Shown here piece by piece: positions 1-64,000 of a stretch of DNA of 64,000 bases (within the stretch, counting starts at the first letter, position 1; each line of letters begins with the position of its first letter). The DNA is from an uncultured Gemmatimonadaceae bacterium (lineage in GTDB: Bacteria; Gemmatimonadota; Gemmatimonadetes; Gemmatimonadales; Gemmatimonadaceae): contig CAWHHI010000006.1 in the NCBI GenBank assembly GCA_963829055.1, positions 480,001 to 544,000 of the forward strand. Reading direction: 5' to 3'. The position numbers and the translations under genes were made by a program. The notes beneath the pieces are model-generated. The model was not told the DNA's origin, did no database searches, and saw only the letters and a program-made list of their open reading frames with translations.

Positions 1-1904
1 TCGAACATGATCGCGTTGATCGGGCCTGACGTCCGCTCCGCGACGTCCAGCTTGTAGCCCATCTGCCGAAGTGCCTGACGAGTCTCCTCTGGCAGCGACG
101 ACGCGATCGTCATGTGGCCGGGCTTCATCTCGTGCGCGCCGAATGACGAGCGCATCTGGAAGCTGTTGATGTTTGGGGCTTCCACCGCCTGCTGCGGCGT
201 CATGCCGAACTCCACGACGTTCAGGAAGAACTGCAACAGGTTCTGATCCTGCGAGTCGCCACCCTGGACCGCGAACGCGAGGAACGGCTCGCCGTCCTTG
301 AGCGCGAGCGTTGGGGTCAGTGTCACACGTGGGTGCTTGCCCGGCTCGATGACGTTGAACGGACCGTCCTTCGCGTCGGTGACAAAACTCTGCGCCCGCT
401 GACTGAGGCCGATGCCCGTGCGCCCAGCGATCACCGCCGGCACCCACCCGCCACTCGGCGTGACGGACACGACCCATCCCTCTTCGTCCGCGGCTTCGAT
501 CGACGTCGTTCCGCTGTAGAACGATTCCTTGAACGCCGAGTCCGCGTCCATTGACTTCTTTCGGTGCGTTAGGCACGACACGGCGGTCCTGGCCGCCGCT
601 CGCGGGCTGCGAATCCGGCAATACGAAGTCACTGTTCTTCCAGTCCGCCAGCAGCGACGCGAACGGGTTCGTTCCGCCCTGGAACGGATACGGATCGCCC
701 GGCTTCGCGTTAGGATCGTTCTTGGTCCAGTCGATGGTGGCGAATCGCGCCTTCGCGTACTCCTTCGACAGCAGACCCTTCACCGGCTCTTCGGGCGGGA
801 AGTACGGATCGCCGTAGTAGAAGTCACGATCGGCGAACGCGAGGTTCATCGCCTGGTAGACGCTATGGATGTACTTCGGCGAGTTGTACTCCATGCTCTT
901 CACATCCGTGTTCTCGAGGATGTTGAGCGCCTGGAGCATCGCCGGCCCCTGTTGCCACATGGGCAGCTTGTACACCTCGATGCCCTTGTACGACGTGTGC
1001 AGCGGCTCCTCGATGCGGACCTTCCAGTTCGCGAGGTCCTCCATCGTGAACAATCCGCCGTCTTCCTTCGTGCCGCGCACGATCTCCTGCGCGATGTCGC
1101 CCTTGTAGAACCGGTCGTACGCGGCGTAGATCGCCTGCTTTCTGCGTCTTGCCTGACGCGAGCGCTTGCTTCTCCGCCGCGACGAGCTTGCGGAACGTCG
1201 CCGCGAGGTCCTTCTGGACGAAGATCTCTCCCGGCTCCGGCGCTTCGCGTGTCTCGCCGGGATGGGTCAACATGATCGACGGCGCGTACTTCCACTGCTT
1301 GATCCACGACTTGTTGCGCTCGATGGTATTCGTGAGCTGCGCCTCGATCGGGTAGCCGTCGGCCATCTCGAATCGCCGGCGCCAGCACGTCCGCGACCGA
1401 CAGCTTGCCATACTCGGCCAGCATGGTCAGCAGACCGCCCATGGTGCCCGGCGTGACCGCGGCGAGCGGGCCGTATTCCGGCGGCTCCTTGTAGCCCTTG
1501 CTCTTGTAGTAGGCCGCCGTGGCGCCCGTCGGCGCGACGCCTAACGCGTTGATCCCGATGACCTTCTTCGTCTTCGGGTTGTAGATGAGCGCCTGGGTCT
1601 CACCGCCGCAGGACAGCGTGTCCCACATCGTGCAGCCGGCGGCGAGCATCGCGGCCGTGGCGTCGACGGCGTTCCCACCCTTCTGGAACATCATCGCGCC
1701 CGCGGTAGCCGAGAGCGGCTTCCCGGTGATCGCGAGCCAGTGCCTGGCGTGAAGCGGTGGCTTCTCGGTGGCGAAGCGCCGCGGGTCGGCGGCCTGCATC
1801 GGCTGGCCGGGCCTGGTCGTGCGGCCCTGGGAGTGGAGCGGAAGTGCGACGAGTGCCGCGAGCGCGACACCCGCCTCGATCACGGAACGCAGGCGAACCG
1901 ACAT
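1..1904 (-). CDS. ggt: Gamma-glutamyltransferase family protein with signal peptide (frameshifts near 1370 and 1140; 3' end outside window)
   Basis: GGNAVDATAAML, GGETQALIY, VTPGT, C-terminal GGDSQDQNLLQFFLNVVEFGM...QAVEAP found across successive frames. Confidence 0.9.
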
Positions 1905-1957
1905 GAGCGCCTCGGCGAGAGGGATGATAACGGATTATCGTCAGGGGAACGCCGTGG

Positions 1958-2030
1958 GGGAACGGGGAACAGGGAACGGGGAACAGGGAACGGCGAGCTG
2001 GTCGCTGGTCGCTCGTGCTGGTCGCTGGTC
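1958..2030 (+). repeat. Heptamer tandem repeats: (GGGAACR)x5, then GCTGGTC x2 + x2
   Basis: Directly visible at 1958-1992 and 1997-2030, immediately before a palindromic repeat. Confidence 0.85.
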
Positions 2031-2036
2031 GCGGCC

Positions 2037-3919: not shown

Positions 3920-3921
3920 CC

Positions 3922-9924: not shown

Positions 9925-11418
9925 TCAGGGCACGGCCTTCGACGACCGCTTCTTCATCAGTGCTTCGATCTCCTCGATCTCGCGCGGCGCGTTGGCGCTG
10001 ATGCGCTCGAGTCCCTTCTCGGTGATGATGTAGTTGTCCTCGATGCGGACGCCGGTGTTCTGGTAGCGCGCGCACCGCGTCCTTCACCTTCGCCATGAAC
10101 GCGCGGTTCTTCGGCGTGTCGGGAAGCGCGTCGAGCATCGCCTGGCTGACGTAGATGCCGGGCTCGATCGTGAACGCGTCGCCTTCCTTGAACGTGCGGT
10201 CGCCGAAGTAGAACTGCGCCGGGTCGTGCACGGCGAGGCCGATGCCGTGCGCCGATGCCGTGGATCATCCAGAAGTAGCGTCTGGCTTGCACGCGCACGG
10301 GCACGGCCGCGCAGTTGACCTTCCACGGCGGATCGAACGTGCGCGTCCTCGCTCTCGACCAGGCCTAACGCGACGAGCCCCTTCGCGCGCACGTCGATCG
10401 ACGAGTCCTGCGCCGCCTGCGCCGACATCCCCGGCTTCGAGTTCCGCTCGGCCGCCGCCTGCGCGTCGCGCACGAGCTGGTAGATGGCGCGCTGCTCGGG
10501 CGTGAACGTGCCGCTCACGGGAATCGTGCGCGTGACGTCGGCGGCGTAGCCCTCGTACTGCGGTGGCCGCGTCCATGACGACGACGTCGCCGGGCTTGGC
10601 ACGGCGCCGCGGTCCTTCATGTAGTGGAGCTGCGTGCCGTTCGCGCCCGGCGCCGACGATGGAGCCGTACGCGGGACGCTCGCCGCCGAGTCGCGTGAAC
10701 GTGTACTCGACGACGGCCTGGATCTCGTACTCGTGCGCCGGCTCGGGCGCGAGCATCGCGGCGCGATGGCCTTCGGCGCTGATCTCGCCGGCCTTGCGCA
10801 GCAGCGCCATCTCGGCCGGCGACTTCTTCGCGCGGAGCTCGTCGACGATCGTCGTGCGCGTCCTTGACGGTCGAGCCCGGCGCGTGCTCGCCGCGAGCGC
10901 CTTCATGAACGACCGGCCGCGCGTGAGCGAATCCTGCTGCGGCGAAGTCGGCGTCGGCGAAGTCGGCGAGCGTGTAGAACGGGGCGTCGGGCTGCGCCGG
11001 CGAGCGAGTCGACGAACGCGGCGAGCGCGGCGAACGACGCGCGCCTTGACGCCAACGTGCGCACGACGGACGCGGAGTCGGGGCGGCGGCCGTAGTAGAA
11101 CGCCGTGCGCGGGTCGATCGGGCGTGAGGAAGAGCGTGCTCGTCGCGCGTGCCGCCCTTGCGCGACCATCACGAACGCGGCGTCGGGCTCGTCGAAGTTC
11201 GTGAGGTAGTGGAAGGCGGGAAGCTGATAGAACGGGCCGAAGTCGCTGACGGGCGTCTGTCCACCGAAGGCGACGACGACGCCGTCGCCGATCCGCGCGG
11301 CGAGCGAATCGCGGCGCGCGGCGTATTCGGCGGTCGGGATCTGTGACTGCAGGCTCGTCGCAGCGGTCGGGGCGAGCGCGACGCAGGCGACGAGAGCCAG
11401 GGTGTGTCGATTGAGCAT
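9925..11418 (-). CDS. Xaa-Pro aminopeptidase, M24 family, secreted (multiple frameshifts)
   Basis: FHYLTNFDEPDA, YAADVTRTIPVSGTFT, HGIG...VHDP, FTIEPGIY, GVRIEDNY. Confidence 0.88.
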
Positions 11419-11530
11419 GGTGGTTGGACCGGGTTGCCGACAATTCGGAGACGAGTTCAACAGGTATACGCGGTACCCTGAGTCTGAACGGACACGTACC
11501 TGGAGTGCAATACCGATAGACGGGTAGGTC

Positions 11531-11572
11531 GGGGTCAGACTCGAGTCTGACCCCAATTACGACCCCAATTAC
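11531..11572. repeat. Perfect 24-bp palindrome GGGGTCAGACTCGAGTCTGACCCC with tandem GACCCCAATTAC x2
   Basis: Directly visible. Confidence 0.85.
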
Positions 11573-11588
11573 GGGGACGGAAACGAGC

Positions 11589-11918
11589 CTAGTGCGGCTG
11601 CGCGGCGGTCCGGCGCCGCAGCTCGTCGAAGAAGTTGAACATCACCGTGACGTGATCCTTGCTCTGGGCCGGCACGGCGGTCGGTGCGGGCACCAGAGCG
11701 ATAATTCGCTCGCCATCAGGCGCGAGGTCGTAGTTAGGCATCACACCCGTGTCGGCGAGGCGCACTTGCGCCCAGGCGCGCGGCGGCTGAGCAACAAAGG
11801 AATCACCCTTCGTACTATACCGCACGGCCATCAGCCGCTGGTCATCGGTCGCGTAGAAGAGATCGTGACCGTTCCGGGACCAACGCGGAATGCGCCCGCC
11901 GCCGGTCGAAATCGGCAC
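11589..11918 (-). pseudogene. C-terminal remnant of a PD40/TolB-like protein (type usually fused to Ser/Thr kinases)
   Basis: ISTGGGRIPRWSRNGHDLFY, NYDLAPDGERI, VTVMFNFFDEL; no upstream part present. Confidence 0.65.
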
Positions 11919-12241
11919 CCGGCCGGACGGCCTTTCACGCGTTTCGAGTCGTCAACCTGGCGACCGGGACGCAAACCGCCGAGATCACGCTGACGGCGGC
12001 CAATGGCGATCTGTTGCGTACGACCGACGTCAGTATGCGCACCGCGATTCCTGCCGACCAGTTTCCTCTTTACGGGCACGACGACGATCGTGAGTGGAAC
12101 CGGACGCTTCGCCAACGCCACGGGCGCGTTGCAGGCTGAAGGTGAGGTGGATCTGATTACCGGCGCCGCGTCGATTCGCGTACGACGGCTGGATCGCGTA
12201 CGACGCGTCAGACCGCTCCAACTGACAGACGGGACGGAGCG

Positions 12242-13006: not shown

Positions 13007-13010
13007 GGAC

Positions 13011-13181
13011 GTCATTCCGAGCGGGTCGTCATTCCGAGCGAGCGCAGCGAGTCGAGGAATCGCGATGTCCCGGTAGAGGGGCAGCCGCTCAATCCCGGGA
13101 GCAAGGATTCCTCATGCGCCAGAGGGCACCCGCGCGCGTTCGGCGCTTCGCTCGGAATGACACAGCTCCGCTCGGAATGAC
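13011..13181. repeat. Palindromic intergenic repeat, family A (doubled arms on both sides)
   Basis: GTCATTCCGAGCG x2 ... CTCGGAATGAC x2. Confidence 0.93.
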
Positions 13182-13201
13182 AACCGAGCTAGAATGGTGG
13201 T

Positions 13202-14753: not shown

Positions 14754-14774
14754 ATGAGCGCGCGGCGGTAGTGT

Positions 14775-17477
14775 GTGCCCATGACGTTTCCAAGCGAGAC
14801 ACCGCGCTGGCGGCGCTACCTCCGATTCTGGCGCCGCGACGTCCCGGCTGACATCGAGGACGAGCTCGCCTTCCATTTCCAGATGCGCATCGGCGAGCTC
14901 ACGGAGCAGGGCCTTCCCCCGGACGCCGCGCGCCGGCAGGCGCTCGAAGAGTTCGGTGACGTGAACACCGTGCGCACGAGCCTCGAGGCGATCGACCAGC
15001 GCGTGGCACGCCGCGAGAGCCGCATGGAGTGGGTCGACAGTTGGCGGCAGGACATCGCGTATGCAGCGCGATCCCTCCGTCGCACGCCCGGCGTCACGCT
15101 CACGATCGTCGTGACGCTCGCCCTCGGACTTGGCGCCAACACCGCGATGTTCTCGCTGCTGAACGCGGTGTTCCTGCGGCCGCCTGCTGGTGTCGCGAAG
15201 CCTGATCAGGTCCGTCGCGTGTGGTCGGAGTTCATGTTCCGCACGGGACGGCAGTTCTGGCCCGGTTACGACTACGCGCAGTATGACGAGCTGCGGAAAG
15301 CCATCGCCGGACTCGGCGTGGCGACGATCTACCAGCAAGCCGAAGAAGTGAAGGTCAGTCGCGGTGCCTCGGCGCCGCGCGCGCTGATGGCCAGAGCACC
15401 GAGTGACTTTTTCTCGCTGGTCGGAGTGCGTCCCTCACTCGGGCGGTTTTTCACGGCCGAGGAAGACCGGTTAGGCAAGGGGCAACGCGTCGCGGTGGTG
15501 AGCCACGCCTTCTGGACCCGCGCGCTCGGCGCCGACACTGCCGCGTTAGGGCAGACGATCGTGCTCGGGGGCGAGCCCTACACACTCATCGGCGTGGCGG
15601 AGCGGCGATTCAACGGCGTCGATCTCAGTGCGACCGAGGTGTGGGTTCCGCTCGCCACCGTCGGGAACATCGACGAGAAGCCGTGGTGGACGGATTACCG
15701 TGTGAACGGGTTCCAGATTCTGATTCGGCTGGCCGACGGTGTGAGCGATGCGGCTGTCGACGCCCGGGCGACGCAGACGCTCCGCCGGCCCGACGTGCGG
15801 CGCACAGGGGTGGACTCGCTGTCGGTCACCCGCGTCGGCTCGATCATCGCGGACCGCGGACCGGGGAAGAAGACGCAGGAAGTGCAGGTCGCCACGCGCC
15901 TTGGCGGCGTCGCCCTGATCGTGCTCGTGATCGCCTGTGCGAACGTGGTGAATCTCCTGCTCGCCCGTGCCATGCGGCGGCGCCGCGAGATCGCCATGCG
16001 TCTCGCGCTGGGCATCTCCCGCGGCCGGCTCGCGCGGCTCATCCTGACGGAGAGCGTGCTGCTGGCCACCGCCGCTGGTGTGGCCGCCATCATCGCGGCG
16101 CATTGGGGCGGGTTGGCGTTGCGGGCGCTGCTCCTGCCTAACGTCCACTGGGCAGAAATGCCGGTCGACTGGCGCGTACTCGTCGGAGCGTTGGTCGCCG
16201 TGGTGCTCGCCGGTCTCGCCGCCGGCGTCGTTCCAGCGATTCAGTCGGGATCGACGAAGCTGACCGACGTCCTCAAGGCCGGGGCGCGCGAGGGATACGT
16301 TCGCCGCTCGCGCCTTCGCTCGCTGCTCGTCGTCGCCCAGGTCGCACTTTCGGTGATGCTGCTGACCGGCGCCGCGTTGTTCATGCGGAGTCTGTCCAAC
16401 GTCCGGTCGCTGGATCTCGGCTTCGACGCGAGCCGGCTCATCTTCGCGCGCGTGAGTTTCGACACGAAGGACGCACGTCGCGATTCGCTCGCGTCGGAGC
16501 GATTCGAAGAAGCAGCGCGACGCATGCGCGCGGCGCCCGGCGTACAGGCGGCCGCGCTCACGGCCATGCGACCAATGTACGGGTTCAGCTTCGTGTCGTA
16601 CTACCCGGACGCGGATACGGTCGCGCACGCGAAGCCTCTCGGGATGTACTGGGCTGTGTCGCCGGAGTACTTCGCCACGGCGGGAACGCGTATCATCGCC
16701 GGCAGTGGCTTTCCGGCGGGCAGCGCGGCAACGCCACCATCCGTCATCGTGAACACCGCCATGGCCGACGCTCTGTGGCCGGGCGAGAGCCCGTTGGGCC
16801 GCTGTGTGCGATTCGACAAAGCGGACGGGCGATGCAACACCATCATCGGAGTCGTGGAGACCGCGCGGTGGGGACAACTCATCGAGGAAGCCACTCCACA
16901 GTTCTACCTGCCGTTGGGCAACATGCCATTCCCTCAGGGCCCACGGACGATCGCCATTCGAACGGACGAGGCAATGGCGCCGGCGGTCGTGCGGCAACTG
17001 CGCAGTGTCATTGCGGAAGAATTTCCTGGCGGTGAGCCTCTCATCGAGCGGATGTCCACGGTGCTCGAGCCGCACTATCGACCGTGGCGGCTGGGCGCGA
17101 CGCTGTTCACGTTGTTCGGCGTGCTCGCCGGCATCGTCGCGGCGCTCGGCGTGTACAGCACGGTGTCGTACAGCGTGAGCCAGCGGACGCACGAGTTCGG
17201 GGTGCGTGTGGCGTTAGGCGCGCAGTTCGGCGACGTGATGCGCCACGTGCTCGGCGAGGGGCTCCGGGTCGTGTGGGGCGGCGTCGTGGTGGGCGTGGCG
17301 TTGTCGCTGCTTGCAGGCCGACTCGTTGCCGCACTCCTGTACGGTGTCACGCCGCGCGATCCGGCTGCGCTCTCGGTCGTGGTGGTGACGCTGCTTGCCG
17401 TTGCGACGGTAGCGGCGCTGGTGCCTGCCTGGCGCGCGTCACGCGTGGATCCGCTGACGGCGCTGCATAACGAGTAG
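14775..17477 (+). CDS. ADOP/MacB-like duplicated ABC permease
   Basis: DIEDELAFH, TLALGLGANTAMF, CANVVNLLLAR, RTHEFGVRVALGA, PAWRASRVDP. Confidence 0.92.
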   Translation: MPMTFPSETPRWRRYLRFWRRDVPADIEDELAFHFQMRIGELTEQGLPPDAARRQALEEFGDVNTVRTSLEAIDQRVARRESRMEWVDSWRQDIAYAARSLRRTPGVTLTIVVTLALGLGANTAMFSLLNAVFLRPPAGVAKPDQVRRVWSEFMFRTGRQFWPGYDYAQYDELRKAIAGLGVATIYQQAEEVKVSRGASAPRALMARAPSDFFSLVGVRPSLGRFFTAEEDRLGKGQRVAVVSHAFWTRALGADTAALGQTIVLGGEPYTLIGVAERRFNGVDLSATEVWVPLATVGNIDEKPWWTDYRVNGFQILIRLADGVSDAAVDARATQTLRRPDVRRTGVDSLSVTRVGSIIADRGPGKKTQEVQVATRLGGVALIVLVIACANVVNLLLARAMRRRREIAMRLALGISRGRLARLILTESVLLATAAGVAAIIAAHWGGLALRALLLPNVHWAEMPVDWRVLVGALVAVVLAGLAAGVVPAIQSGSTKLTDVLKAGAREGYVRRSRLRSLLVVAQVALSVMLLTGAALFMRSLSNVRSLDLGFDASRLIFARVSFDTKDARRDSLASERFEEAARRMRAAPGVQAAALTAMRPMYGFSFVSYYPDADTVAHAKPLGMYWAVSPEYFATAGTRIIAGSGFPAGSAATPPSVIVNTAMADALWPGESPLGRCVRFDKADGRCNTIIGVVETARWGQLIEEATPQFYLPLGNMPFPQGPRTIAIRTDEAMAPAVVRQLRSVIAEEFPGGEPLIERMSTVLEPHYRPWRLGATLFTLFGVLAGIVAALGVYSTVSYSVSQRTHEFGVRVALGAQFGDVMRHVLGEGLRVVWGGVVVGVALSLLAGRLVAALLYGVTPRDPAALSVVVVTLLAVATVAALVPAWRASRVDPLTALHNE

Positions 17478-20933: not shown

Positions 20934-20962
20934 CGAGCCCCTGATCTGAAGCCGAGCACGAC

Positions 20963-25980: not shown

Positions 25981-25992
25981 ACGCGACGAGGC

Positions 25993-27384: not shown

Positions 27385-27589
27385 CGCAGGTCGCCGTTAC
27401 GGACTCGGCAGGTATTCGGTATCCTGCTCATCCCGCTGGGAGCGCGTGCACGGCAGCCATGGCGCGGTGCAGCGCGCCTAACGACCATTGCCGGCGTTGC
27501 GACCGGCGTCCGCATGCTGACGGCACGGAGATCGCGTTAGGCCCGGTTATCGAGATGCGAGGCGGCCGGGTCCGCCAGAGGAGGATGTG

Positions 27590-34988: not shown

Positions 34989-36815
34989 TCCGTCGTCTGC
35001 GCGCGGTGCTCGCGCTGCGCTCATGGCCGTCGCGCCTAACGTGCACGCTCGGCCAGACGAAGCCGCCGGCGAAGAAGCCCGATCCGGCATGCCCGGGATG
35101 CCGGGCATGACGCACGACTCGGCAAGAACGACGCCGTCGAAGAAGCCGGGCGCGAAGCCGCAGCCAGCGACAGCCGGCGCCGATGAACATGCCCGGCATG
35201 AGCGGCGACAGCATGGCCGCGGGCATGCCGATCCCGATGCCGAAGGGCATGCCAATGATGCCGGGACTCATCGGGCTGACGCCGCCCGTGACGCTCGTTC
35301 CTGCCCGGCGCAGGCGTCGATCCGGCGACGGTGCCGGCCGCGAAGCCGACGCAGACGGTCCGGCTCAAGGACGGCGACACGCTCGACCTCACGGCGGGAC
35401 TCGTCAGGCGCACGATTCGCGGCCAGCGGTTCGTGATGTACGCGTTCAACGGCATGGTGCCCGGTCCGCTCATCCGCGTCGCGCAGCAGGCGACGATCAC
35501 GGTGCGCTTCCACAACAGGATCGACCTGCCGAGCACCGTGCACTGGCACGGGCTGCGGCACGACAATCGGTTCGACGGCGTCCCGGGCCTGACGCAGGCG
35601 GAGGTCGCGCCGGGCGGCGACTTCACGTACACGGTCCACTTTCCGGACGCGGGCGTCTACTGGTATCACCCGCACGTGCGCGAGGACATCGAGCAGGCGA
35701 TGGGACTCTTCGGCAACATGATCGTCGACTCGCCGGAGCCCGACTACTACTCGCCGGTGAATCGCGAGCAGTCGCTCGTGCTGAACGACCTGCTCATCAA
35801 CGCCGACACGCTGATCCCGTTCGGCAAGGAAGCGCCGACGTACGCGCTCATGGGGCGCGTCGGCAACGTGCTCACGGTGAACGGCGAGCCGGACTACAAG
35901 CTCTCGGCGCGGAAGGGCGAGGTGGTGCGGTTCTTCTTCACGAACGTCTCCAACTCGCGCACGTACAACGTCTCGTTCGGCGGCGCGCCGATGAAGGTCG
36001 TCGCGCAGCGACGTGAGCCGCTTCGAGCGCGAGGAGCGTGTGCCGAGCGTCGTGCTCGCGCCGGCGGAGCGGTACGTGGTCGAGGTGCGGTTCGACAAGC
36101 CGGGTCGCTACGCGCTCGTGAACGCGATCCAGGCGATCAACCACTTCGCTGGGCGAGTTCGAGCCCGAGGTCGACACGTTAGGCATCGTGACCGTGAGCG
36201 ACGGTGCCGGCCATCGCCCGACTACGGGTCGCGGTTCGCGACGCTGCGCGCGTACCCGGCCGTGTCGCGCGACGTCGATCGCTTCCGGCAGTACTTCGAC
36301 AAGGAGCCCGACGAGACGCTCACGCTCACGGTGCGCGCCGAACTCGCTGCCGCTCGCGACGGTGCAGTTCATGAACGTCGACACGGCGTACTTCGCGCCG
36401 GTCGAGTGGGTGGACGGCATGCCCGACATGAACTGGCTGTCCACGAGCAAGCAGGTGCAGTGGATCCTGCGCGACGGATGCGACGGGCAAGGAGAACATG
36501 GACATCGACTGGCACGTGAAGCAGGGGTCGGTGGTGAAGCTCCGGATCTTCAACGATCCGAAGTCGTTTCATCCGATGCAGCACCCGATCCATCTGCACG
36601 GCCAGCGCATGCTCGTCGTGTCGCGCGACGGCGTGAAGACGCGCAATCTCGTCTGGAAGGACACGGTCATCATCCCCGTGGGGTCGACGGTCGATCTGCT
36701 GATCGACGCGTCCAATCCGGGAGCGTGGATGCTCCACTGCCACATTGCCGAGCATCTGGAGTCGGACATGATGGCGGTGATGCACGTGGACGCGGTAGGC
36801 GATGGCAAACGTTAG
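34985..36815 (+). CDS. Three-domain multicopper oxidase with Met-rich N-terminus (multiple frameshifts)
   Basis: HWHG, YWYHPH, HPIHLHG, HCHIAEHLESDMM. Confidence 0.9.
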
Positions 36816-36831
36816 GCTCCCGGGTCGAGGT

Positions 36832-36967: not shown

Positions 36968-37966
36968 AGCATTGGCTCCGACCTGATCACTCAAGCGCCT
37001 CACCGCACGCCGGAGTTCGAACGTGCCGAGTCGCTGATTCGTCAGCGGTTCGCGCCATCGCGATTGGTCAAATCGACAGCGCTCTCGGATCGTCTCGGAG
37101 CGGACGTGCACCTCAAGCTCGAATGCGAGCTGCCGACTGGCTCCTTCAAGGTGCGCGGCGCGTACTACGCGCTCTCTCGCCAACGTGAGGGTGCCGACGT
37201 CTCCGAAGTCGTTGCGGCAAGTACGGGAAATCACGGCGCCGCCGTCGCGTGGGCGGCACGCGAGCTCGGGCTAGCCGCGAAGATTTTCGTCCCGAACGGC
37301 GCCAACGCGACGAAGATCGCGCGCATTCGCTCGCTCGGCGCTCAGCTCACGGAATCCGGAGCCGACATTGAAGGCGCACGACGCGCGGCCGAAGCGTACG
37401 TGGCCGACTCCGGCGCGTTCCTGCTCGATGACGCGACGAGCGATGACGTCCCAATCGGCGCCGGCACGATCGGTCTCGAGCTACTCGCCGAGCTTCCCGA
37501 CGCGAGCGCGGTGATCGTGCCGGTCGGCGACTCCGCGCTCATTCGCGGCGTCGCCGCCGCGATGAAGGCGATCCGACCCGACGTTCATGTCACGGGAGTG
37601 CAGGCGAGTGGAGCGCCCGCGTACTACCGCTCGTGGAAAGCTGGTACCGTCGTGACGACCGAGACCGCGGACACGATCGCCGACGGCCTCGCGACGACGC
37701 GTCCAACTGACTCGAACGTGACGGCCATCCGGGCGCTCGTCGATGGGATGGTGCTCGTCGACGAGCGGGACATGCTCGACGCGATGCGATGGCTACGAGC
37801 ACATGAGAGTATCGTGGCCGAACCTGCGGGCGCCGCCGCTGTGGCAGTCCTGTTGAACGCGCATGCGTGGCCGTTTTCATCGACGGTTGCATTGATCACC
37901 GGCGGGAACGTCGCGCCCGATCTGGCGATGGCACTCGCTGGCGGCGATTCCTCTTCCACGCGTTAG
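36944..37966 (+). CDS. PLP-dependent threonine/serine dehydratase family (catalytic domain only; start uncertain)
   Basis: LKLECELPTGSFKVRGA, ASTGNHG, VPVGDSAL, TIADG, AEPAGAAA, ITGGN. Confidence 0.88.
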   Translation: MTAVARHDSIGSDLITQAPHRTPEFERAESLIRQRFAPSRLVKSTALSDRLGADVHLKLECELPTGSFKVRGAYYALSRQREGADVSEVVAASTGNHGAAVAWAARELGLAAKIFVPNGANATKIARIRSLGAQLTESGADIEGARRAAEAYVADSGAFLLDDATSDDVPIGAGTIGLELLAELPDASAVIVPVGDSALIRGVAAAMKAIRPDVHVTGVQASGAPAYYRSWKAGTVVTTETADTIADGLATTRPTDSNVTAIRALVDGMVLVDERDMLDAMRWLRAHESIVAEPAGAAAVAVLLNAHAWPFSSTVALITGGNVAPDLAMALAGGDSSSTR

Positions 37967-37975
37967 GCACCGTGG

Positions 37976-42607: not shown

Positions 42608-42627
42608 ATCCACCCATCTCCACTCTC

Positions 42628-43355
42628 GTGACGTCGCCATCCGACAGCAGCGATTCGTTCGACGTCACGGACGTCAATCGCGTTAGGCGCTATCACCAGC
42701 GCGGCCATTACGACCACGCGACCGTCTTCCGCATCCTCGACGAAGGGCTCGTCGCCCACGTCGCCTTCGTGGACGACGGCCGGCCTGTCGTGATTCCCAT
42801 GGCGTACGGCCGGGACGGCGACCGGCTGTTCCTCCACGCGGCTCGCAAGGGACGCATCACCACCACGCCCGCGGGCGAGCAGGTGAGCATTGGCGTACAC
42901 TCGTGGACGGGCTCGTCGTCGCGCGCTCGCTGTTCGACTCGTCGATGAACTACCGCGCCGTCGTCATCCACGGGCGCGCGTCCGTCGTTGAAGGCGAGGC
43001 CGAGCGGCTGCACGCGCTCAAGTGCATCGTCGAGCACATGATCCCGGGCCGATGGGCCGAGGCGGGTGTGCCGTCGGCGCAGCATCTCAAGGCTACGACG
43101 GTGCTCGAGGTCGAGATCGAGACGGCGTCAGCGAAGGTCCGCGACGGTGGCGTCAACGAGGACTACGACGCGGATTCGGCGGCGATGTGGTGCGGGGTGG
43201 TGCCGCTCGTTACGACGGTCGGGACACCCGAGGTGGATGCGGCGGTGCCGAGTGGTGTGGCGGTTCCGGCGTCGGTGCTTGGGCTCGGTCGTCGGTACGG
43301 GAGAGCCGATCGCTCGAATGACATACCCGACCAAACGATGACGTCGGCGAAATAG
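42628..43355 (+). CDS. Pyridoxamine 5'-phosphate oxidase-like FMN-binding protein (frameshift near 42900)
   Basis: [51 protein letters not shown]. Confidence 0.85.
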
Positions 43356-43558: not shown

Positions 43559-45060
43559 GTGACCGACGTATCCGCGTCCGCGCCGCCCAAGGCGACATCC
43601 ACGAGCACGCCCAGCACCGTCACGTCACGTCGGCTCTCACGACGACCGCAGAGCGGCGGCGTTACGACCGCTCGATCATCGAAGGGCCACTGCAAGGCCG
43701 CCGTGTGGAAGATCGCGTGGCCGACGATGCTCACGAACATCATCGGCGGCATGCAGGGCATCGTCGATCACGTGCTCGTCGGGCACCTCGTCGGCTACAA
43801 GGGCAACGCGGCCATCGGCGTCGCGTGGCAGATCTTCCTCATCGTCATCGCGTTCATCTCGTCGCTGTTCATCGGCATGGGCGTGCTCGTCGCGCGCTTC
43901 GCCGGCGCGGGCGATGAAGACAAGGTCGACCGCGTCGTCTACCAGGCGTTTCTGACGGCCGTCGGGATCTCGCTGTTGATCATGGCGCCGATCGGCTGGT
44001 TCGCGTCGCCGCGGCTGCTCGATCTCGTGAACGCCGCACCGCAGGTGAAGGCCGAGGCGCTGCCGTTTCTGCGCATCATGTTCCTGTGCAGCATCGGCAT
44101 GATGGTGTTCTTCATGTTAGGCGGCGCGCTTCGCGCCGCCGGCGACGCGCGGACGCCGATGATGCTCGGCATCGCGCATGACGGTGCTGAACCTCGTGCT
44201 CAACATCGTCTTCATTCGCGGACTCGGGCCCGATTCCGGCGCTCGGCACCAAGGGCGCGGCGGTGGGAACGTGCATCGCGTCGGGCATCATCGATGGTGT
44301 ACGCGCTCGTGGAAGCTCTGGAGTGGCACGTGGGTCGTGAAATTTCCACGCGGCCAGGGATTCGGACCGGACTGGGCGATCATCCGATCGCTGTTCAGGT
44401 TCGGCCTGCCGTCCGGAATTCAGGGCATCGCGATGAACGTCGGCGGGACGCTGATGCTCGCGTTCATCGGCTCGGTGGCGCAGGGGCGCGGCGGCGCAGG
44501 CGGCGTTCGCGATCGGCTACTCGCAGCTCTTCTCGCTCATCACGTGGACGTCGGTCGGACTCATGGGCGCGGCGGCCGCGGTCGCCGGCCAGAACCTCGG
44601 CGCCGCGCAATCCCGATCGTGCCAACGAGGCCGTGCACGTCGCCGCGCGCTTCGGCGTCGTCGGGCGCCGCGATCATCGGCGCGTTCTTCCTGTTCCTCC
44701 CGCGCCAGCTGCTCGGCGTGTTCGGCATGAACGACCCGGCGGTGCTCGAGATCGGCGCGCAGCTGCTGCGTGTGCTCGAGCGTCTCCGGACTGTTCATCA
44801 CGCGTCGCGCTGACGTACACCGGCGGCCTGCAGGGCACGGGCGACACGAAGAGCCCGCTCTACATCTCGATCGTCTCGCAGATCGTCGTGCCGTTAGGCA
44901 TCTGCTTCGTGATCAAGCGAGACGGGCACGCTCGCAGCCGATCCACATCTGGATCGCGATCCTGGTCGGCCACGCGACGCGATGCGTGCTGAGCGTGGTG
45001 CGGTTCAATCAGGGGAAGTGGCGGAACATCGCGGTCGCGATCGGCGGTGAGCAGGCGTAG
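43559..45060 (+). CDS. MATE family efflux transporter (many frameshifts)
   Basis: WKIAWP, IVDHVLVGHL, ALRAAGDARTPM, GLPSGIQ, GQNLGA, GLQGTGDTKSP. Confidence 0.88.
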
Positions 45061-46442: not shown

Positions 46443-47754
46443 ATGAGCGGCGACGCTGCGCCCCCGACTGACGTAGGCATGCCGCTGACGGCCACCGCAG
46501 ACGACGCGGGGCTGTTCGGGTGGTGGCGCGTCGCCAGCACGTCGTCGCGACGCGCGCTCGTCGCCGCGGGACTCGGCTGGGCGCTCGACGCGTTCGACGT
46601 CATGCTGTTCTCGCTGACGCTCGCGGCGGTCATCGCCGATCTCGGCCTCACGAAGACGCAGGCGGGCGCGCTCGGGTCGATCACGTTGTTAGGCGGCGCG
46701 GCCGGTGGTCTCATCTTCGGCCACGTCGCCGATCGATTCGGGCGCACGCGTGCGTTGATGGCGAGCGTGTTGATCTACTCCGTGTTTACCGCGGCGTGCG
46801 GCCTGTCCCAGACGTTGTGGCAGTTCGCGATCTTCCGCGCGCTGCTCGGCCTCGGCATGGGCGGCGAGTGGGCCAGCGGCGCGGCGCTCGTCTCGGAGAC
46901 GTGGCCGGCGAAGCATTGCGGGCGCGCGTTAGGCTACATGCAGAGCGCCTGGGCCATCGGGTTTGCCGTGGCGGCCATGGTCGTCGGGTTCGTGCTGCCG
47001 CGGTACGGATGGCGCGTGGTGTTCTTCGTCGGGATCCTGCCCGCGTTTTTCACGCTGTGGGTGCGGCGAAACGTGGAAGAGCCCGACGTCTGGAAGGCGC
47101 ACCGCCGAGCGGTCGGTGCCGCCGGCGCGAGCGGCCGCACGGCTGGGCCGCTTCACCGACATCTTCAAAGGCAAGATGCTCGGCCTAACGAGCGCGGTGA
47201 CGTTCATGAACGCCTGCGCGCTGTTCGGCTGGTGGGGGCTCAACGGCTGGGTGCCCGCCTACCTGTCGCTGCCCGTCGCGCAGGGCGGTATCGGACTCGG
47301 CACCGAAACGATGTCGTGGTTCATCGTCGCGATGCAGGTCGGGATGTGGATCGGGTACGTCTCGTTCGGCTACATCACCGACGCGGTCGGCCGGAAGCGC
47401 GTGTACGTGACGTATCTCGTGATGGCGAGCCTGCTGTTGCCGCTCTACGGTTTCATGAAGGTCCCGCTCGTACTGCTGTTGCTCGGGCCGTTCGTGGCAT
47501 TCTTCGGTACCGGCTTCTTCAGCGGCTTCGGCGCTGTCACGGCCGAGATCTATCCCACATCCATTCGCGCCACGGCGCAGGGCTTCACGTACAACCTCGG
47601 CCGCATCGCGAGCGCAGCCGCGCCGTTCACCGTCGGGAAACTCGCGACGTCGCACGGCTTCAGCACGGCGTTTGCGGTGGCGGGTGCGGTGTACCTCCTC
47701 GGTGCACTGGCGTGGAGCTGGATACCCGAGACTCGCGGCCGAGAGCTGACGTAA
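46443..47754 (+). CDS. MFS transporter (frameshift near 47140)
   Basis: GWALDAFD, ADRFGRTR, GLGMGGEW, TDAVGRKR, AEIYPTSIRATAQG, IPETRG. Confidence 0.92.
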
Positions 47755-47917
47755 TCCTGACGGCTGCGTTAGGCATCGTGTCATATCCGTTGCCGTTGGT
47801 TGGATATCCATCATTCCGTCGATTGCAGCGCGCGGTGTTGTGACGGTTCCCGCCGCCGGGTGCCTCGCGCCGTCCGTTGCTCCCTGTCAGCAGCGAAGCA
47901 ATGAGCGCCAGAACTCG

Positions 47918-51298: not shown

Positions 51299-52039
51299 CT
51301 ACATCGCGGTCTCGTGCAGCGTGGCGGTGACTGGCCCGCTCGGCGTGTCGATACTGGCTGTCACGTCATCCGGGCCGGCGTTCGGGCCTAACGTGAGCGC
51401 ATCCGTCGCGACACCGAATGCGTCCGTGGTAACGGTCGTCGCCGTGAGCGATCCGCTGGCGTCGTCCGAGAACGTGACGGTCACGTTAGGTACGGCGTTC
51501 CCGTACTGGTCGACGACCCTGACCGTCAGCGGCGACGAGAGCGCGCTTCCCGCCGCGGCACTCTGCGCGTCACCCGCAGTCACCATGATGGTCGCGGCGA
51601 CACCCGGCGCCGCGGTGGCGAGCACCAGTACTGGCGACAGGCTCCCGGCCTGAACGGCGAGCGTGTCCGTTCCGGCGACGGTGCCTAACGTCCAGTTCAC
51701 CGCCACCTGCCCGTTCGTGTCCGTCGTGAGCTGCGCGCTCGGAACGCTTCCGGACGCCGTGCCAAGCGTGAGGTTCACCGCCACTCCGGCCAGCGCCTTG
51801 CCGTTCTGATCGTTCACCTGCACCACCACCGGAGTGGCCAGCACGGCGCCGACCGTCCCACTCTGCGAGCCACCGCTCAGCACGGTCACAGCGCTGGCCG
51901 TCAGCGGCGCAGTCGAGTCGTCATTGTGGCACGCCGCGAGCCCCAGGACGGCCACGCACGCCGTCAGTATCCGTGAAGCACGGATACCCCGCCGTGCGGA
52001 GGGTGACCGGAGTGTCAATGAGCCGTTTAGGTCGGGCAT
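51299..52039 (-). CDS. Lipoprotein with bacterial Ig-like domains
   Basis: LAAC lipobox; VNDQNGKALAGVAV, TTDTNG, VVDQYGNAVPNVTVTF. Confidence 0.85.
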   Translation of the reverse strand: MPDLNGSLTLRSPSARRGIRASRILTACVAVLGLAACHNDDSTAPLTASAVTVLSGGSQSGTVGAVLATPVVVQVNDQNGKALAGVAVNLTLGTASGSVPSAQLTTDTNGQVAVNWTLGTVAGTDTLAVQAGSLSPVLVLATAAPGVAATIMVTAGDAQSAAAGSALSSPLTVRVVDQYGNAVPNVTVTFSDDASGSLTATTVTTDAFGVATDALTLGPNAGPDDVTASIDTPSGPVTATLHETAM

Positions 52040-57873: not shown

Positions 57874-59326
57874 CTACTTGACGGTCGCCTTCTCCAGCTT
57901 CGTCGTCGGCCCGTCGCGCGTCGTCAGATACACCACGCCGCCCGCCCCAAAGCCTGTGATCGTCCGGCCCACTGGAATCTGTACGCGCTCGACCAGCTCG
58001 CCTTTGCGATTGATGACGTCGTACACCGGTCCGCCCGCGATCGCCTTCGTCGGGATCGTGCGGACCCACACGTTGCCCTCGGTGTCCGCGCGAACGAAGC
58101 CGTTCAGGAACACCGGCTTGTAATCCGGCAGCTCACTCGGCGCCACGAACGTCGGTGCTGGCGCCGTCATGTTGAATCCGCCTGCCGGACCGGCTCCGTC
58201 ACGACGCGGAGCGCCATCGCCGCCCGGAGGACCGCCGAACACCATGACGCGCATGCCTTCCACCGGGGGGTTCGCCGCCGGCGGAGCACCCGCTGCATTG
58301 CCGGCTGCGGGAGCGCCGCCACCGCCCGGCGTCACCGGACGCGGCGCGTTCGCGCCCATGCGCTCACGCGCCGCCTTCACCGAGTCGATGAACGCGACCT
58401 TGTCCTCGTCCGTCAGCCGCTGCCACTCGAACGGAATCTTCGGCGCCGACGCTCGCGACCCGTCGGCGTTGATCCAGTCGATGTGATAGTCGCGCCCGCG
58501 CACGATCGCGACGGAGCCGTCCGACAGCGCCGCCCACTCGTCCACGACCGGCAGCGGGTTGATCTCCGAGGTCATCATCACGCGACCGTTGTCGGCCTGG
58601 TCACGTTCATCTTGACCTTCTGGGTCTTGATGAAGGCGAGCGTGTCGACCTTCCGCGTGGCGAGGTCGATGCGGAAGATGCCCGCGGAGTCGGGAATCTC
58701 GGGCATGCGCGGGGCGCCGCCCGCCGCGCCGGGCCCTCCGAATGCTCGCATGTCGAGACGCGGCGACGAGCGGTAGACGAGCCGACCCTGCGGATCCACT
58801 ACCGCGACGCCTAACACGCCAGCGAACGACATGGCGTCCTGCGAGCTGGGCACCGACATCACGCGACTCACCTTGCCCGCGGGGTCGAGCACGAGCATCG
58901 ACAGCGACTGCGGATCGACGAACAGCGTCGAATCGCCCTTGTAGGCGACGAGTCCGGCAAAGCGTCCACCGTAGGCGTTGGCCGTAGCGCTCGTGCTGTC
59001 CGCGACGACGGTGAAGTTCTCGAGCTTCGCGTCGAACAGCATCACGCGCCGGCCAGAACGGGTCGTTCACGAGCACTCGGCCATCGGAGAGCGGGCGGAT
59101 GTTCGAGACGGTGCCAAGCTTCTCCTTCGCCGTGGCCGTCACGGCGCCGAGCTGCCGGATGGGCGGAAGCTCCGGCCCTTTGGCCTGTGCGCCGCGCGAC
59201 GCTCGACTCCGAGCAGCAGGAACGACAACGACTTCACGTGGCTCTCGAGTCTCATTGCAATTACCGCAGAGGGTGAAAAGAAGCACCAGTAGCGCGACGA
59301 CGCGCTGCCTGACGAAATCGTGTCAT
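57874..59326 (-). CDS. Secreted beta-propeller-like hypothetical protein (frameshifted; start approximate)
   Basis: LSDGRVLVND, DEWAALSDGSVAIVRG, ADTEGNVWV, YDVINRKGELVERV. Confidence 0.7.
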
Positions 59327-62300: not shown

Positions 62301-63147
62301 CCGACAACGCCCCGCCCAGCGACGCGTTCGTGTACTCCTGTCCGAGCGCGCGCGCGACCGGGTCGGTCCACTGCGTCTTCGGCGTGTCGAGATTCAGGCT
62401 CATGCCGCGCGTGATGAAGTTCGAGCCGGGCCGCGTGCGCAACGAGAACTGCGCGCCGCTGAAGCCGCCGCGCGAGACGTCGTAGGGCGTCGTCACGAGC
62501 GAGCTCGAGACCGCGGCGTCCCGGGTAAGCCCGAACCCGCCGAAGTTCATCCCGTTGAGCGTGGTGTTGTTCTGGTCCGCGCCAAGGCCAAGTACAGAGA
62601 AGCCATTGGGATCGCCGTCGGCGCCGGGCACCGTCTGCACGCCGGGCAGCGTCGCGGCCATCGCCGCGAGGTCGCCCATGAGATTCGCCGGAACGTCGGC
62701 CGTGGGGATCGGCCGCTCGGTACCGCTGATGTCGGGTGCGGGGTCGGTCCGCGCCACCTTGTCGCGCGGAGCCCTGATGTCCATCTGGCCGAGCACGGCG
62801 TCGACCTTCGTCAGCTTGGCGTCGGCGACGAGGATCTCCTCATCGGCCATCCGCTTGACCTCGAAGCGTTTGGCTGCGTAGCCGATCGCCGCGAACGCCA
62901 CCATGTAGTCGCCGTCGCCGGCGGGGAACGTCACGGTGAAGCGGCCGTCGCGATTCGTTCGTGCGGTCCGGCTGACGTTGCCGGAGAAGGACGTCACGGT
63001 CACGAGTACTTCGGGGACTGGCAGGCTGTCCGGCCCGATCACGCGACCGCGGATGACGTCGGCTTGCTGCGCAAATGCGCGATGGGGCGCGAAGCGAGAT
63101 GCCCGCGAGCAATACGGCCGCGAGCAGTATCAGAAGACGAAGGTCAC
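59367..63147 (-). CDS. Oar/TonB-dependent receptor-like protein with carboxypeptidase regulatory-like N-terminal domain (many frameshifts; ends approximate)
   Basis: IRGRV, TNRDGRF, QNNTTLNG, YDVSRGGFSGA, SPRVGFSW, GDVNGDGYSNDRAF. Confidence 0.8.
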
Positions 63148-63467
63148 GGAAATCCCTTCGACCTTCGGAGGAGGGAAGTGGCTGGATGCCGCGTTGCGCG
63201 GGTCAGCGGGAGGTTGGACTCCCGCGGGCGCGAATGGGTTTACTACAGGCGTCAGTTTGCCGGCCGAATGGCGACTCAGCGCACCGCGCGCTCGCAGTCA
63301 TCGAGAGCGTCACCAGCATCTGGTGCGTCTACGTACACGTCCCCCATCTTGGTGGCTACCTCGCCAGCCAATGTCCAACCGTGCATACAACACTACTGCC
63401 GCGTCCAGGATCCTGCATGCCGTGGCATGCCATGCTGGATCCCGAAGCGCGTACCATACACACCACA

Positions 63468-64000
63468 ATGATCCGACGTCACCTGCGTCACCTAACGACC
63501 CTCGCGCTGTCGCTCTCGTTCGCCGTCGTCGTAAGCCCGGCCGCGGGCGCGCAGCTTCCGCGTGTTGGCATCATCGACTTCTACGGACTGCACAAGACCA
63601 CCCCGGCGCAGATCCGCGAGGCGCTCGGCATCGCCGTCGGGGACTCGATCACGGCGCTCGGGCTGTTCCAGGTGCCCGCCCGGCTCGCCGATATCCCGGG
63701 AGTCGCGTCGGCCGCGATCGACCCCGTCTGCTGTGAAGATGGTAAGACGATGCTGTACGTCGGCATCGCCGAAGAAGGAGCGCCGACGCTCGAGCTCCGC
63801 GCAGCCCCTACCGGCGCAAGCCGCCTGACGCCGGACGTGATGCAGGCCGGAGACGCGCTCGCCGATGCGCAGATGCGCGCCGCGAGGCGTGGCTTCGTGA
63901 AGGAGGACTGTCTCAGAGGGCCACTCGCTCATGGCCGATTCGGCCGCCCGCACGATCCAGCTGAGCTTCATACCCTTGGCGGAGAAGCATCTCGACACCC
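63468..64000 (+). CDS. Secreted hypothetical protein (partial, runs off window)
   Basis: Frame from ATG 63468: signal peptide, then VGIIDFYGLHKT...REALG...VCCEDGKTMLYVGI. Confidence 0.65.
   Translation, partial: MIRRHLRHLTTLALSLSFAVVVSPAAGAQLPRVGIIDFYGLHKTTPAQIREALGIAVGDSITALGLFQVPARLADIPGVASAAIDPVCCEDGKTMLYVGIAEEGAPTLELRAAPTGASRLTPDVMQAGDALADAQMRAARRGFVKEDCLRGPLAHGRFGRPHDPAELHTLGGEASRH

What the first reader, a model, noticed from the sequence alone, without database searches (positions are those of the whole stretch)
567..63497. Highly iterated non-palindromic motif (G)CCTAACG / CGTTAGG(C) embedded in genes
Seen: by hand I count about 56 exact CCTAACG/CGTTAGG 7-mers (about 27 and 29 per orientation; about 47 are the 8-mer GCCTAACG) plus 5 hexamer-only variants. 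Examples start at 567, 1540, 3079, 5681, 7086, 8186, 13785, 17212, 21940, 26426, 30683, 36810, 42681, 47184, 51684, 55045 and 61865. That is roughly one per 1.1 kb. A zero-order model at about 68% GC predicts about 7 for the 7-mer and 2-3 for the 8-mer. Most copies lie in coding sequence in different frames and use codons that look rare here (TTA-GGC Leu-Gly, CCT-AAC Pro-Asn, CTA-ACG Leu-Thr); two supply TAG stops (36810, 37961). Established: comparable genome-wide words are cyanobacterial HIP1 (palindromic), Neisseria/Pasteurellaceae uptake sequences (non-palindromic, both strands) and Chi/KOPS (strand-skewed). Inference: no strand skew and no frame preference fit an uptake-like signal, a nucleoid-protein site or a methylation-driven motif. 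I do not recognise this word as a described signal.
Basis: partly seen in the sequence, partly recalled or inferred. Interest (0 to 1): 0.85.

Follow-up and report, generated by a model that had tools for sequence, protein, structure and literature searches.

The report
Hyper-abundant unmethylated word GCCTAACG, Gemmatimonadaceae
This soil bacterium and many relatives have written one eight-letter DNA word thousands of times, evenly spread, into ordinary genes against their own codon habits; it behaves most like the "self tags" some bacteria use when taking up DNA, and what reads it is still unknown but testable in a cultured strain.

Summary
Real and genome-wide: 56 CCTAACG in the window, 6,391 in the 7.8-Mb genome (Gemmatimonadaceae), about 17x a synonymous-codon shuffle. 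The core CCTAAC is strict, the ends graded (best GCCTAACG). Copies arise by point change, are kept between species, turn over between genera, raise Pro-Asn in proteins, and exclude each other within about 300 bp in any orientation. 59 of 221 family genomes are rich; none of 48 outside the order. The scan found this word before on other DNA (8 notes). New here: cultured Gemmatirosa kalamazoonensis carries it (1,731 CCTAAC on two megaplasmids), yet its published PacBio methylome lists three other motifs, which argues against methylation; AddAB-type nucleases were found in only 4 of 36 rich genomes and strand skew is 52%, so not Chi; no low-mutation zone around sites. Best reading (0.5): an uptake-type self tag spread by biased uptake and recombination of short fragments; pilus, ComEC and a ComZ-like tip pilin are present, but also in poor genomes, and DUS-type terminator pairs are missing. 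Rival (0.25): an in-cell binding or loading protein. The word equals this order's integron attC end; a link is unproven (0.12).

The parts
567..63497 (.). 56 dispersed copies of the 7-mer CCTAACG (27 on +, 29 on -), 47 of them the full 8-mer GCCTAACG; median gap 848 bp
   Evidence: + starts: 1540 3079 4233 5681 6265 7568 8186 8841 9674 10364 13785 14162 16137 18122 21095 27477 30356 30683 34603 35035 47184 51387 51684 53977 56316 61865 63491. - copies (low coordinate): 567 708 7086 15544 17212 19574 19865 21940 23280 24178 26004 26426 27535 36177 36810 37961 41300 41814 42681 44892 46927 47767 48386 50669 51484 52158 55045 56612 61017. By my gene searches are Leu-Gly, 11 Pro-Asn, 5 Val-Arg, 4 Leu-Thr, 4 at gene ends, 20 outside called genes (the caller covers 70% of the genome and misses frameshifted genes).
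36810..36816 (-). Copy that supplies the TAG stop of the + strand frame ending at 36815
37961..37967 (-). Copy that supplies the TAG stop of the PALP-family gene ending at 37966
42681..42687 (-). Copy that supplies the TAG stop of the ClpP-family frame 41844-42686
11732..11739 (-). Weak variant GCCTAACT (class 16x over masked background genome-wide)
15469..15476 (-). Weak variant GCCTAACC (class 11x)
44115..44122 (-). Weak variant GCCTAACA (class 74x; also the usual attC R'' end in the order's integron arrays)
46687..46694 (-). Weak variant GCCTAACA
58809..58816 (+). Weak variant GCCTAACA
27476..27542 (.). Close inverted pair of copies (58 bp apart); rare genome-wide, probably chance
51386..51491 (.). 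Close inverted pair of copies (97 bp apart) inside a Big_1-domain gene; rare genome-wide, probably chance

Best explanation
GCCTAACG is an uptake-type self tag. Inferred mechanism: a sequence-specific receptor of the type IV pilus / ComEC transformation machine (best candidate in this genome: a ComZ-like tip pilin) binds double-stranded DNA that holds CCTAAC, best with G on each side. Fragments that carry the word are taken up and recombined more often, so any point change that completes the word spreads (molecular drive, perhaps helped by selection for kin DNA), limited by protein and promoter constraint. A second copy within one short fragment adds nothing, which gives the exclusion zone of about 200-300 bp. 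The specificity is old (same word in three families of the order); the drive is strong only in some lineages. Shown: abundance, strict core with graded ends, origin by point change, conservation, turnover, effect on proteins, spacing, presence of the machine. Inferred: uptake bias, the receptor, fragment length.
For: Both strands about equal (3,154:3,237; 1,876:1,710 against GC skew). Strict core, graded multiplicative ends: GCCTAACG 196x, ACCTAACG 72x, GCCTAACA 74x, CCCTAACG 38x, TCCTAACG 13x, both ends wrong 1-5x, 16 of 18 single core changes at 0.7-1.9x; weak variants avoid strong sites too. End preference differs by lineage like DUS dialects: 64 of 64 copies in 100 kb of Gemmatirosa plasmids have G at the first place, against 2,031 of 2,549 in six contigs of G000. 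Occupancy of permissive Pro-Asn sites rises from 9/49 within 50 bp of another copy to 246/347 at 400-600 bp; Leu-Gly from 8/279 to 323/858; similar scale in G014 at twice the density. Conserved: 120 of 202 and 115 of 169 G000 copies kept in G001 and G005 at 79-81% identity; 15 shared and 6 unshared in G147/G219 where random 7-mers match 25%. Pro-Asn O/E 1.39 in rich against 1.06 in poor loci; Pro-Asn-[VADEG] 97 of 159 against 20 of 64, as reported for uptake sequences (PMC2817400, passages). Highest between convergent genes (1.96/kb), lowest between divergent ones (0.46/kb), none in two 16S genes, lower in low-GC3 genes. ComEC in 36 of 36 rich genomes, PilM in 34 of 36; G000 has pilA-minor pilins-pilMNOPQ, dprA-like and comEC genes. 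The 383-aa minor pilin folds as pilin plus beta-solenoid (pLDDT 87); best Foldseek match is the Thermus DNA-binding pilin ComZ (E 2e-5, TM 0.27), found in 16 of 16 rich genomes. Not methylated in a carrier strain.
Against: No uptake data. The machine does not separate the classes: ComEC in 34 of 36 and PilM in 35 of 36 poor or intermediate genomes; the ComZ-like pilin was found in 10 of 20 poor genomes with one query and in more when the pilM locus was read, with no basic residue special to rich genomes; its solenoid matches ice-binding proteins better than ComZ by VIA-align (Z 16 against 9). No excess of close inverted pairs, a mark of Neisseria DUS terminators (10 of 1,539 '+-' neighbours under 50 bp). 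The word uses the rarest codons (59% of all TTA), whereas known uptake sequences favour common codons (PMC2817400). An exclusion zone of 200-300 bp asks for much shorter recombined fragments than the 0.6-1.7 kb given for Neisseria (PMC2397512). Exclusion is weak in G182 (120 kb, 208 sites). Natural transformation of this phylum was not seen in any paper I read.
Confidence: 0.5

Rival explanations
1. The word is the site of an in-cell sequence-specific DNA-binding protein (nucleoid organiser, or a loader for repair or recombination in lineages that lack AddAB). One site serves about 300 bp, so selection favours evenly spread copies on either strand.
For: Orientation-blind exclusion at a fixed physical scale; graded binding-site profile; avoidance of promoter regions; same density on megaplasmids. 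PF12705 (AddAB-type nuclease) matched 4 of 36 rich against 18 of 36 poor or intermediate genomes, and 0 of 4 against 2 of 2 within genus g54 (kin are not independent, and some matches lie in short frames).
Against: No such protein identified. Density ranges smoothly from about 40 to 1,850 per Mb and is at background in 144 of 221 family genomes, odd for an architectural need. Positions are not kept between genera (3 shared, 44 + 11 unshared, G014/G000). No change in divergence around sites.
Confidence: 0.25
2. The word comes from integrons: it is the order's usual attC end (CGTTAGGC at R', GCCTAACA/G at R''). Either the uptake receptor first evolved to catch cassette-bearing DNA and drive then spread the word, or an integrase or host factor for cassettes acts on it.
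For: In poor genomes G027 and G025 the few copies sit in cassette arrays beside integrases; the two commonest attC ends (GCCTAACG 37, GCCTAACA 33 in 32 kb of G027) are the genome's first (196x) and joint second (74x) words. Integrases over the cut-off in 24 of 41 order genomes. Transformation feeds chromosomal integrons in Vibrio (PMC12614218, abstract).
Against: Integrase presence does not follow the word. Other attC ends are not enriched (GTCTAACG 1.3x, GGCTAACG 1.1x). Integrase secondary sites need only GWT plus another motif (10.1101/2022.09.11.507474, passages). Dispersed copies form no paired arms and do not bracket genes like cassettes (14 seen, 16.4 expected). GTTAGGC is a common attC end in other phyla too (recalled).
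Confidence: 0.12
3. A methyltransferase marks CCTAAC and methyl-directed repair creates or protects copies (the model proposed for HIP1).
For: A single-copy type IIG-like adenine methyltransferase with a SNF2 helicase is a syntenic core locus: 214 of 221 family genomes, 111 of 122 in the order, 2 of 48 outside, the same range as the word; motifs I and IV are intact. One-letter deviations sit at the ends, as for HIP1 (PMC4390886, passages).
Against: PacBio methylome of G. kalamazoonensis KBS708 lists only RGATCY, ATGCAC and CCAGN7TCA (PMC3974934, whole text), although its two megaplasmids hold 1,731 CCTAAC. The enzyme is the same in rich and poor genomes with no separating column. No C5 or N6/N4 family match in G000 and in 3 and 2 of the 4 other rich genomes tested. 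Fourfold-site identity is flat with distance from sites (0.51-0.54; 0.54-0.60). Caveats: PacBio sees 5mC poorly (recalled); the raw kinetics were not seen; fourfold sites are near saturation.
Confidence: 0.06
4. Chi- or KOPS-like polar signal for a helicase-nuclease or translocase.
For: Non-palindromic octamer; slight excess of CGTTAGG on the G-rich strand (52.3%, p 0.006).
Against: Skew is far below that of Chi or KOPS (recalled); on contig C16 it is 161:203 on one side of the skew switch and 246:244 on the other. AddAB-type nuclease not found in 32 of 36 rich genomes.
Confidence: 0.03
5. Sequencing artefact or plain mutational bias.
For: The assembly has many single-base insertions.
Against: Indels are unrelated to the word; copies fit reading frames; several kinds of change (transitions and transversions) are needed to reach it; 59 of 221 genomes and a named finished genome have it; spacing and conservation need a reader.
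Confidence: 0.01

Closest known systems
DNA uptake sequences: DUS of Neisseriaceae (receptor ComP) and USS of Pasteurellaceae
   Same: Short non-palindromic word, about 1 per kb, both strands, made by point change, conserved, scarce in rRNA and constrained genes, raises the peptides it encodes, lineage dialects, host with type IV pilus and ComEC (PMC7811141, PMC2397512, PMC2817400, passages).
   Different: Unrelated word (8 bp, 6-bp core); other phylum; no inverted terminator pairs; uses the rarest codons; exclusion at 200-300 bp; no ComP match among five pilins scanned; patchy within one family; uptake bias untested.
HIP1 (GCGATCGC) of cyanobacteria
   Same: Octamer with strict 6-bp core and tolerant ends, 15- to 300-fold excess, inside genes in several frames, conserved, function open; recently tied to transformation (PMC4390886, PMC5861425 passages; PMC13756078 abstract and Discussion).
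   Different: Not a palindrome; not among the methylated motifs of a carrier strain; no matching methyltransferase; long-range periodicity not tested.
Integron attC core sites (RYYYAAC / GTTRRRY) and attG secondary sites
   Same: Letter-for-letter the commonest attC ends in this order's cassette arrays.
   Different: Dispersed copies are single, unpaired, in coding frames, stricter than attC, and independent of integrase presence.
Chi (RecBCD/AddAB) and KOPS (FtsK)
   Same: Over-represented non-palindromic octamer.
   Different: Almost no replichore skew; AddAB-type nuclease mostly not found in rich genomes; much stronger excess.

Membership tests
DUS/USS uptake sequences | Short non-palindromic word, about 1 per kb, on both strands, far above a codon-aware null | tested here: met
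   0.82/kb; about 17x synonymous shuffle; 3,154:3,237
DUS/USS uptake sequences | Arises by point change and is conserved beyond its surroundings | tested here: met
   120 of 202 and 115 of 169 kept at about 80% identity; unshared sites mostly align without gaps
DUS/USS uptake sequences | Raises the peptides it can encode | tested here: met
   Pro-Asn O/E 1.39 against 1.06; Pro-Asn-[VADEG] 97/159 against 20/64. No rise for Leu-Gly or Val-Arg in the same loci
DUS/USS uptake sequences | Scarce in rRNA, constrained genes and foreign DNA | tested here: met
   0 in two 16S genes; 0.34-0.51/kb at GC3 under 0.75 against 0.89 at 0.85-0.9, but 0.63 above 0.9. The three largest empty blocks look like mis-joined DNA of other taxa, so they do not test native gene transfer
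DUS/USS uptake sequences | Frequent close inverted pairs acting as terminators | tested here: not met
   Close pairs are depleted in all four orientations
DUS/USS uptake sequences | Host encodes type IV pilus, ComEC, DprA, RecA | tested here: met
   equally true of poor genomes; ComEA match in G000 is weak
DUS/USS uptake sequences | A pilin receptor specific for the word | tested here: inconclusive
   No ComP family match in 5 G000 pilins; a ComZ-like pilin exists but also in poor genomes
DUS/USS uptake sequences | Preferential uptake of DNA that holds the word | not testable with these tools
   Needs an uptake assay
HIP1 | Palindrome GCGATCGC or an alternate palindrome | tested here: not met
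   The word differs from its reverse complement
HIP1 | Core methylated by a resident methyltransferase | tested here: not met
   Published methylome of a carrier strain lists three other motifs; 5mC not excluded by PacBio, but no C5 enzyme match in 4 of 5 rich genomes
HIP1 | One-letter deviations mainly at first and last base | tested here: met
HIP1 | Periodic spacing over tens of kb | not tested
   Only spacing up to a few kb was analysed
Chi | Cognate RecBCD/AddAB enzyme in carriers | tested here: not met
   PF12705 matched 4 of 36 rich genomes; G000 is one of the 4; draft genomes, so 'not found'
Chi / KOPS | Strong replichore polarity | tested here: not met
   52.3% by local GC skew; 161:203 and 246:244 on C16
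Integron attC | Paired R''/R' arms 50-150 bp apart folding into a hairpin, in arrays | tested here: not met
   True for array copies, not for the dispersed copies
Restriction-modification / orphan methyltransferase target | All-or-none site that is methylated in vivo | tested here: not met
   Graded ends; not in the methylome

The most novel reading that the evidence does not exclude
A third, independently evolved uptake tag that was seeded by integrons: the pilus receptor of Gemmatimonadales came to prefer the word that closes both ends of their gene cassettes, so that cells fish cassettes out of soil DNA, and in some lineages biased uptake of very short fragments then wrote that word thousands of times into the whole genome and its proteins.
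Probability: 0.12. Interest if true: 0.95.

Novelty: new variant of a known kind. Interest (0 to 1): 0.8.

Why it matters
Genome-wide iterated words of this strength are known from two uptake-sequence families and from cyanobacterial HIP1. A further case in an abundant soil order, with rich and poor sister lineages inside one family and even one genus, is a natural experiment on how such words arise and on drive against selection. If it is an uptake tag it would offer a way to transform a phylum with few tools. It is also a binning marker: empty blocks flag mis-joined DNA.

Tried and rejected
Rfam on the window: no match. Artefact of base calling: rejected. Contigs of 4 runs from 4 studies cover parts of window 10001-30000 with few differences, but only 40 of about 1,200 differing places were shown, so they give no count of conserved copies; no RNA holder listed. 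Core methyltransferase as the writer: present in rich and poor alike, no separating column, fold nearest CamA, M.BseCI and MmeI; not found in viral contigs. Local antimutator (repair-strand signal): no gradient at fourfold sites in 349 kb and 224 kb of alignment, nor clearly in closer pairs (0.060-0.072 in G203/G071, 0.086 in one small far bin). Chi: rejected. Integrase presence, Ku (32 of 36 against 23 of 36), ComEC, PilM, ComEA and pilin counts do not sort the classes. Cassette-like bracketing of genes: none. My automatic attC tally found almost nothing and was dropped; the attC counts come. Another hyper-abundant word in poor genomes: none seen in 19 loci of 8-20 kb. Only 8 short poor pilM loci could be read against 20 rich ones, so that comparison is uneven. 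Literature: CCTAACG anywhere gave 1,452 papers, the 30 listed unrelated by title; two searches gave none; two searches gave no report of the word. Subscription journals are mostly not searched. No supplement of PMC3974934 is held; its GEO kinetics, unseen, bear on the methylation claim.
Full report
Observation. The genome G000 (7,784,024 bases, 20 contigs) holds 6,391 7-mers and 5,004 8-mers, at 0.63-1.09 per kb on every contig and evenly on both strands. Expected: 248 and 102 under an order-2 Markov model; 26 8-mers with the core masked; 199-228 against 3,658 seen when synonymous codons of 4,589 called genes are shuffled. RecA is 84-90% identical to records named Gemmatimonadales or Gemmatimonadaceae. 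Gene calls are my own self-trained caller (70% coverage), since the assembly has many one-base insertions.

Anatomy. The core CCTAAC is strict: 16 of 18 single changes inside it are at 0.7-1.9x background, the exceptions being GCATAACG (4.1x) and GCCTGACG (2.1x). The ends are graded: G>A>C>T before, G>A>T,C after, and losing both ends leaves 1-5x. Inside genes four frames are used: Leu-Gly 1,430, Pro-Asn 1,065, Leu-Thr 709, Val-Arg 454. Pro-Asn followed by a G-starting codon is written CCT AAC in 1,065 of 1,718 cases (6% expected; 111 of 1,246 in the control context), and 1,430 of 2,409 TTA codons lie in the word. It supplies 277 of 841 TAA and 231 of 1,783 TAG stops. Density is 0.73-0.75 per kb in genes, 1.1-1.2 between tandem genes, 1.96 between convergent and 0.46 between divergent genes; none in two 16S genes.

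Spacing. Neighbours closer than 100 bp are at 0.22-0.34 of the random number, in all four orientations, with no excess of inverted pairs. Measured on sites where the protein allows the word, occupancy depends on the distance to the next copy: Pro-Asn 0.18 under 50 bp, 0.50 at 100-150, 0.71 at 400-600; Leu-Gly 0.03, 0.16, 0.38; Leu-Thr 0.02, 0.08, 0.27; it falls again beyond 2 kb, where whole regions are poor. Weak variants keep away from strong copies too, except GCCTGACG. The same scale appears in G014 at 1.6 per kb, G001 and G005; it is weak in 120 kb of G182. So one copy serves a few hundred bases regardless of strand.

Evolution. 120 of 202 G000 copies are kept in G001 and 115 of 169 in G005, at 79-81% identity. 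In other within-genus pairs most copies are shared (15 shared and 1 not in G203/G071; 29 and 12 in G014/G134), some pairs less (2 and 9 in G001/G004; 2 and 8 in G159/G086); between genera positions are not kept (3 and 55, G014/G000). Pro-Asn is raised in rich genomes (O/E 1.39 against 1.06). Of 221 family genomes, 59 have 200 or more per Mb (up to 1,847; 17 of 64 genera), 144 have under 40, 18 lie between; only g54 holds both extremes. In the order's other families g102 (181-726 8-mers) and G036, G038, G040 (177-561) are raised; none of 48 genomes outside the order is (highest 70). On a tree of one core gene from 44 loci the rich genomes fall in several groups (deep branches short, support not examined).

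Methylation. G000 has no match to the C5 or N6/N4 families but one Eco57I-family gene at C8 73.6-76.8 kb, in pieces here and whole in G001, G003 and G004, followed by a SNF2 helicase. This pair is a syntenic core locus, found in 214 of 221 family genomes, 111 of 122 in the order and 2 of 48 outside; it folds like CamA, M.BseCI and MmeI. It is the same in rich and poor genomes. The named records of Gemmatirosa kalamazoonensis KBS708 hold 916 and 815 CCTAAC on two megaplasmids (reversed control 101 and 80), yet the strain's PacBio methylome gives only RGATCY, ATGCAC and CCAGN7TCA (PMC3974934, whole text). The core enzyme may write ATGCAC (inference from its family-wide presence and type), a word that is not enriched (2,438 against 2,462). 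A repair-strand signal should lower divergence near sites; none was seen, with the caveat of near saturation.

Chi and integrons. CGTTAGG lies on the G-rich strand in 1,876 of 3,586 cases. On a panel of 36 rich (187 per Mb or more) and 36 poor or intermediate genomes that I chose, PF12705 matched 4 and 18, which excludes Chi and is itself unexplained. In poor genomes the few copies often sit in cassette arrays: attC sites of G027 and G025 end in CGTTAGGC and begin with GCCTAACA; G000 has an integrase with a short array on C20. The family names RYYYAAC and GTTRRRY are recalled. Against a direct role: integrases do not follow the word, other attC ends are not enriched, dispersed copies are unpaired and do not bracket genes, and secondary sites need only GWT plus another motif (10.1101/2022.09.11.507474, passages). 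The exact match is still unlikely enough that I keep 0.12 for a link.

Uptake. ComEC matched 36 and 34 of the two panels, PilM 34 and 35. G000 has a full pilus operon on C12. Its 383-residue minor pilin folds as a pilin with a beta-solenoid; the best Foldseek match is Thermus ComZ, which binds DNA at the pilus tip (PMC6561018, passages). It was found in 16 of 16 rich and 10 of 20 poor genomes; reading the pilM locus showed further copies in poor genomes, some short and without the solenoid. It is a candidate, no more. What fits uptake sequences: density, both strands, point origin, conservation, peptide enrichment, scarcity in rRNA, even spacing from drive (PMC7811141, PMC2397512, PMC2817400, passages), dialects. 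What does not: no terminator pairs, rare codons, very short exclusion scale. HIP1 has lately been tied to transformation as well (PMC13756078, abstract and Discussion).

Verdict. A real, undescribed iterated word that works like an uptake sequence but is not shown to be one (0.5); in-cell binding protein 0.25; integron link 0.12; methylation 0.06; polar signal 0.03. Other papers seen: PMC4390886 and PMC5861425 (passages), PMC8919816 and 10.64898/2026.06.24.734251 (one passage each), PMC12614218 (abstract). No report of the word was found.

Noticed in passing
G000:C8:73650-79000; L130-L174: Type IIG-like adenine methyltransferase (about 1,060 aa, no conserved nuclease motif seen) plus SNF2 helicase is a single-copy syntenic core locus of the order (214 of 221 family genomes; 111 of 122 in the order; 2 of 48 outside). 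Such vertical conservation is unusual for this enzyme class; it may write ATGCAC; role unknown.
   Followed up: partly
G000:C6:5440-55038, C11:1-44055, C6:591808-623330: Large blocks without the word at contig ends, with other GC or gene style; they look like DNA of other taxa joined to this bin. The word can serve as a binning marker.
   Followed up: partly
G000:C20:200000-209000 (L260); L013-L016: Integron integrase with a short cassette array in G000; long attC arrays in G027 and G025. Integrases over the cut-off in 24 of 41 order genomes.
   Followed up: partly
Panel: AddAB-type nuclease matches in only 22 of 72 family genomes, fewer in rich (4 of 36) than in poor ones (18 of 36); many seem to lack both RecBCD and AddAB.
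   Followed up: partly
G000:C12:392000-403000 (L254): Type IV pilus operon with two near-identical pilA and a ComZ-like pilin (pilin plus ice-binding-type beta-solenoid); some poor genomes have only a 130-150 aa form.
   Followed up: partly
window 17605-19658, 20963-24652, 43559-44992, 46443-47843, 900-1904: FtsH, MatE, MFS and gamma-glutamyltransferase genes appear split or cut, and a P-type ATPase frame runs on into an FTCD_C domain; the FtsH break at 18785 is a one-base insertion absent from contigs of other runs, so most such breaks are assembly errors.
   Followed up: partly
window about 29250-32680 (FtsH-like stretch query 15246-18684 = window 29246-32684): A 3.4-kb stretch (PD40 and amidohydrolase genes) is 86-90% identical in four congeners while flanking genes are 74-80%: possible recent transfer within the genus.
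   Followed up: no
window 13000-13200 and 17480-17640: Two short intergenic stretches draw very high contig depth and many loose ends: probably a dispersed repeat.
   Followed up: no
G000:C4:804932-820718 and 458374-471328: Native-looking gene clusters of 13-16 kb without the word; recent arrival or local constraint not resolved.
   Followed up: no
G182 (L130, L262-L266): Density 1,483 per Mb against 276-460 in six congeners, with weak short-range exclusion: perhaps a recent burst.
   Followed up: no
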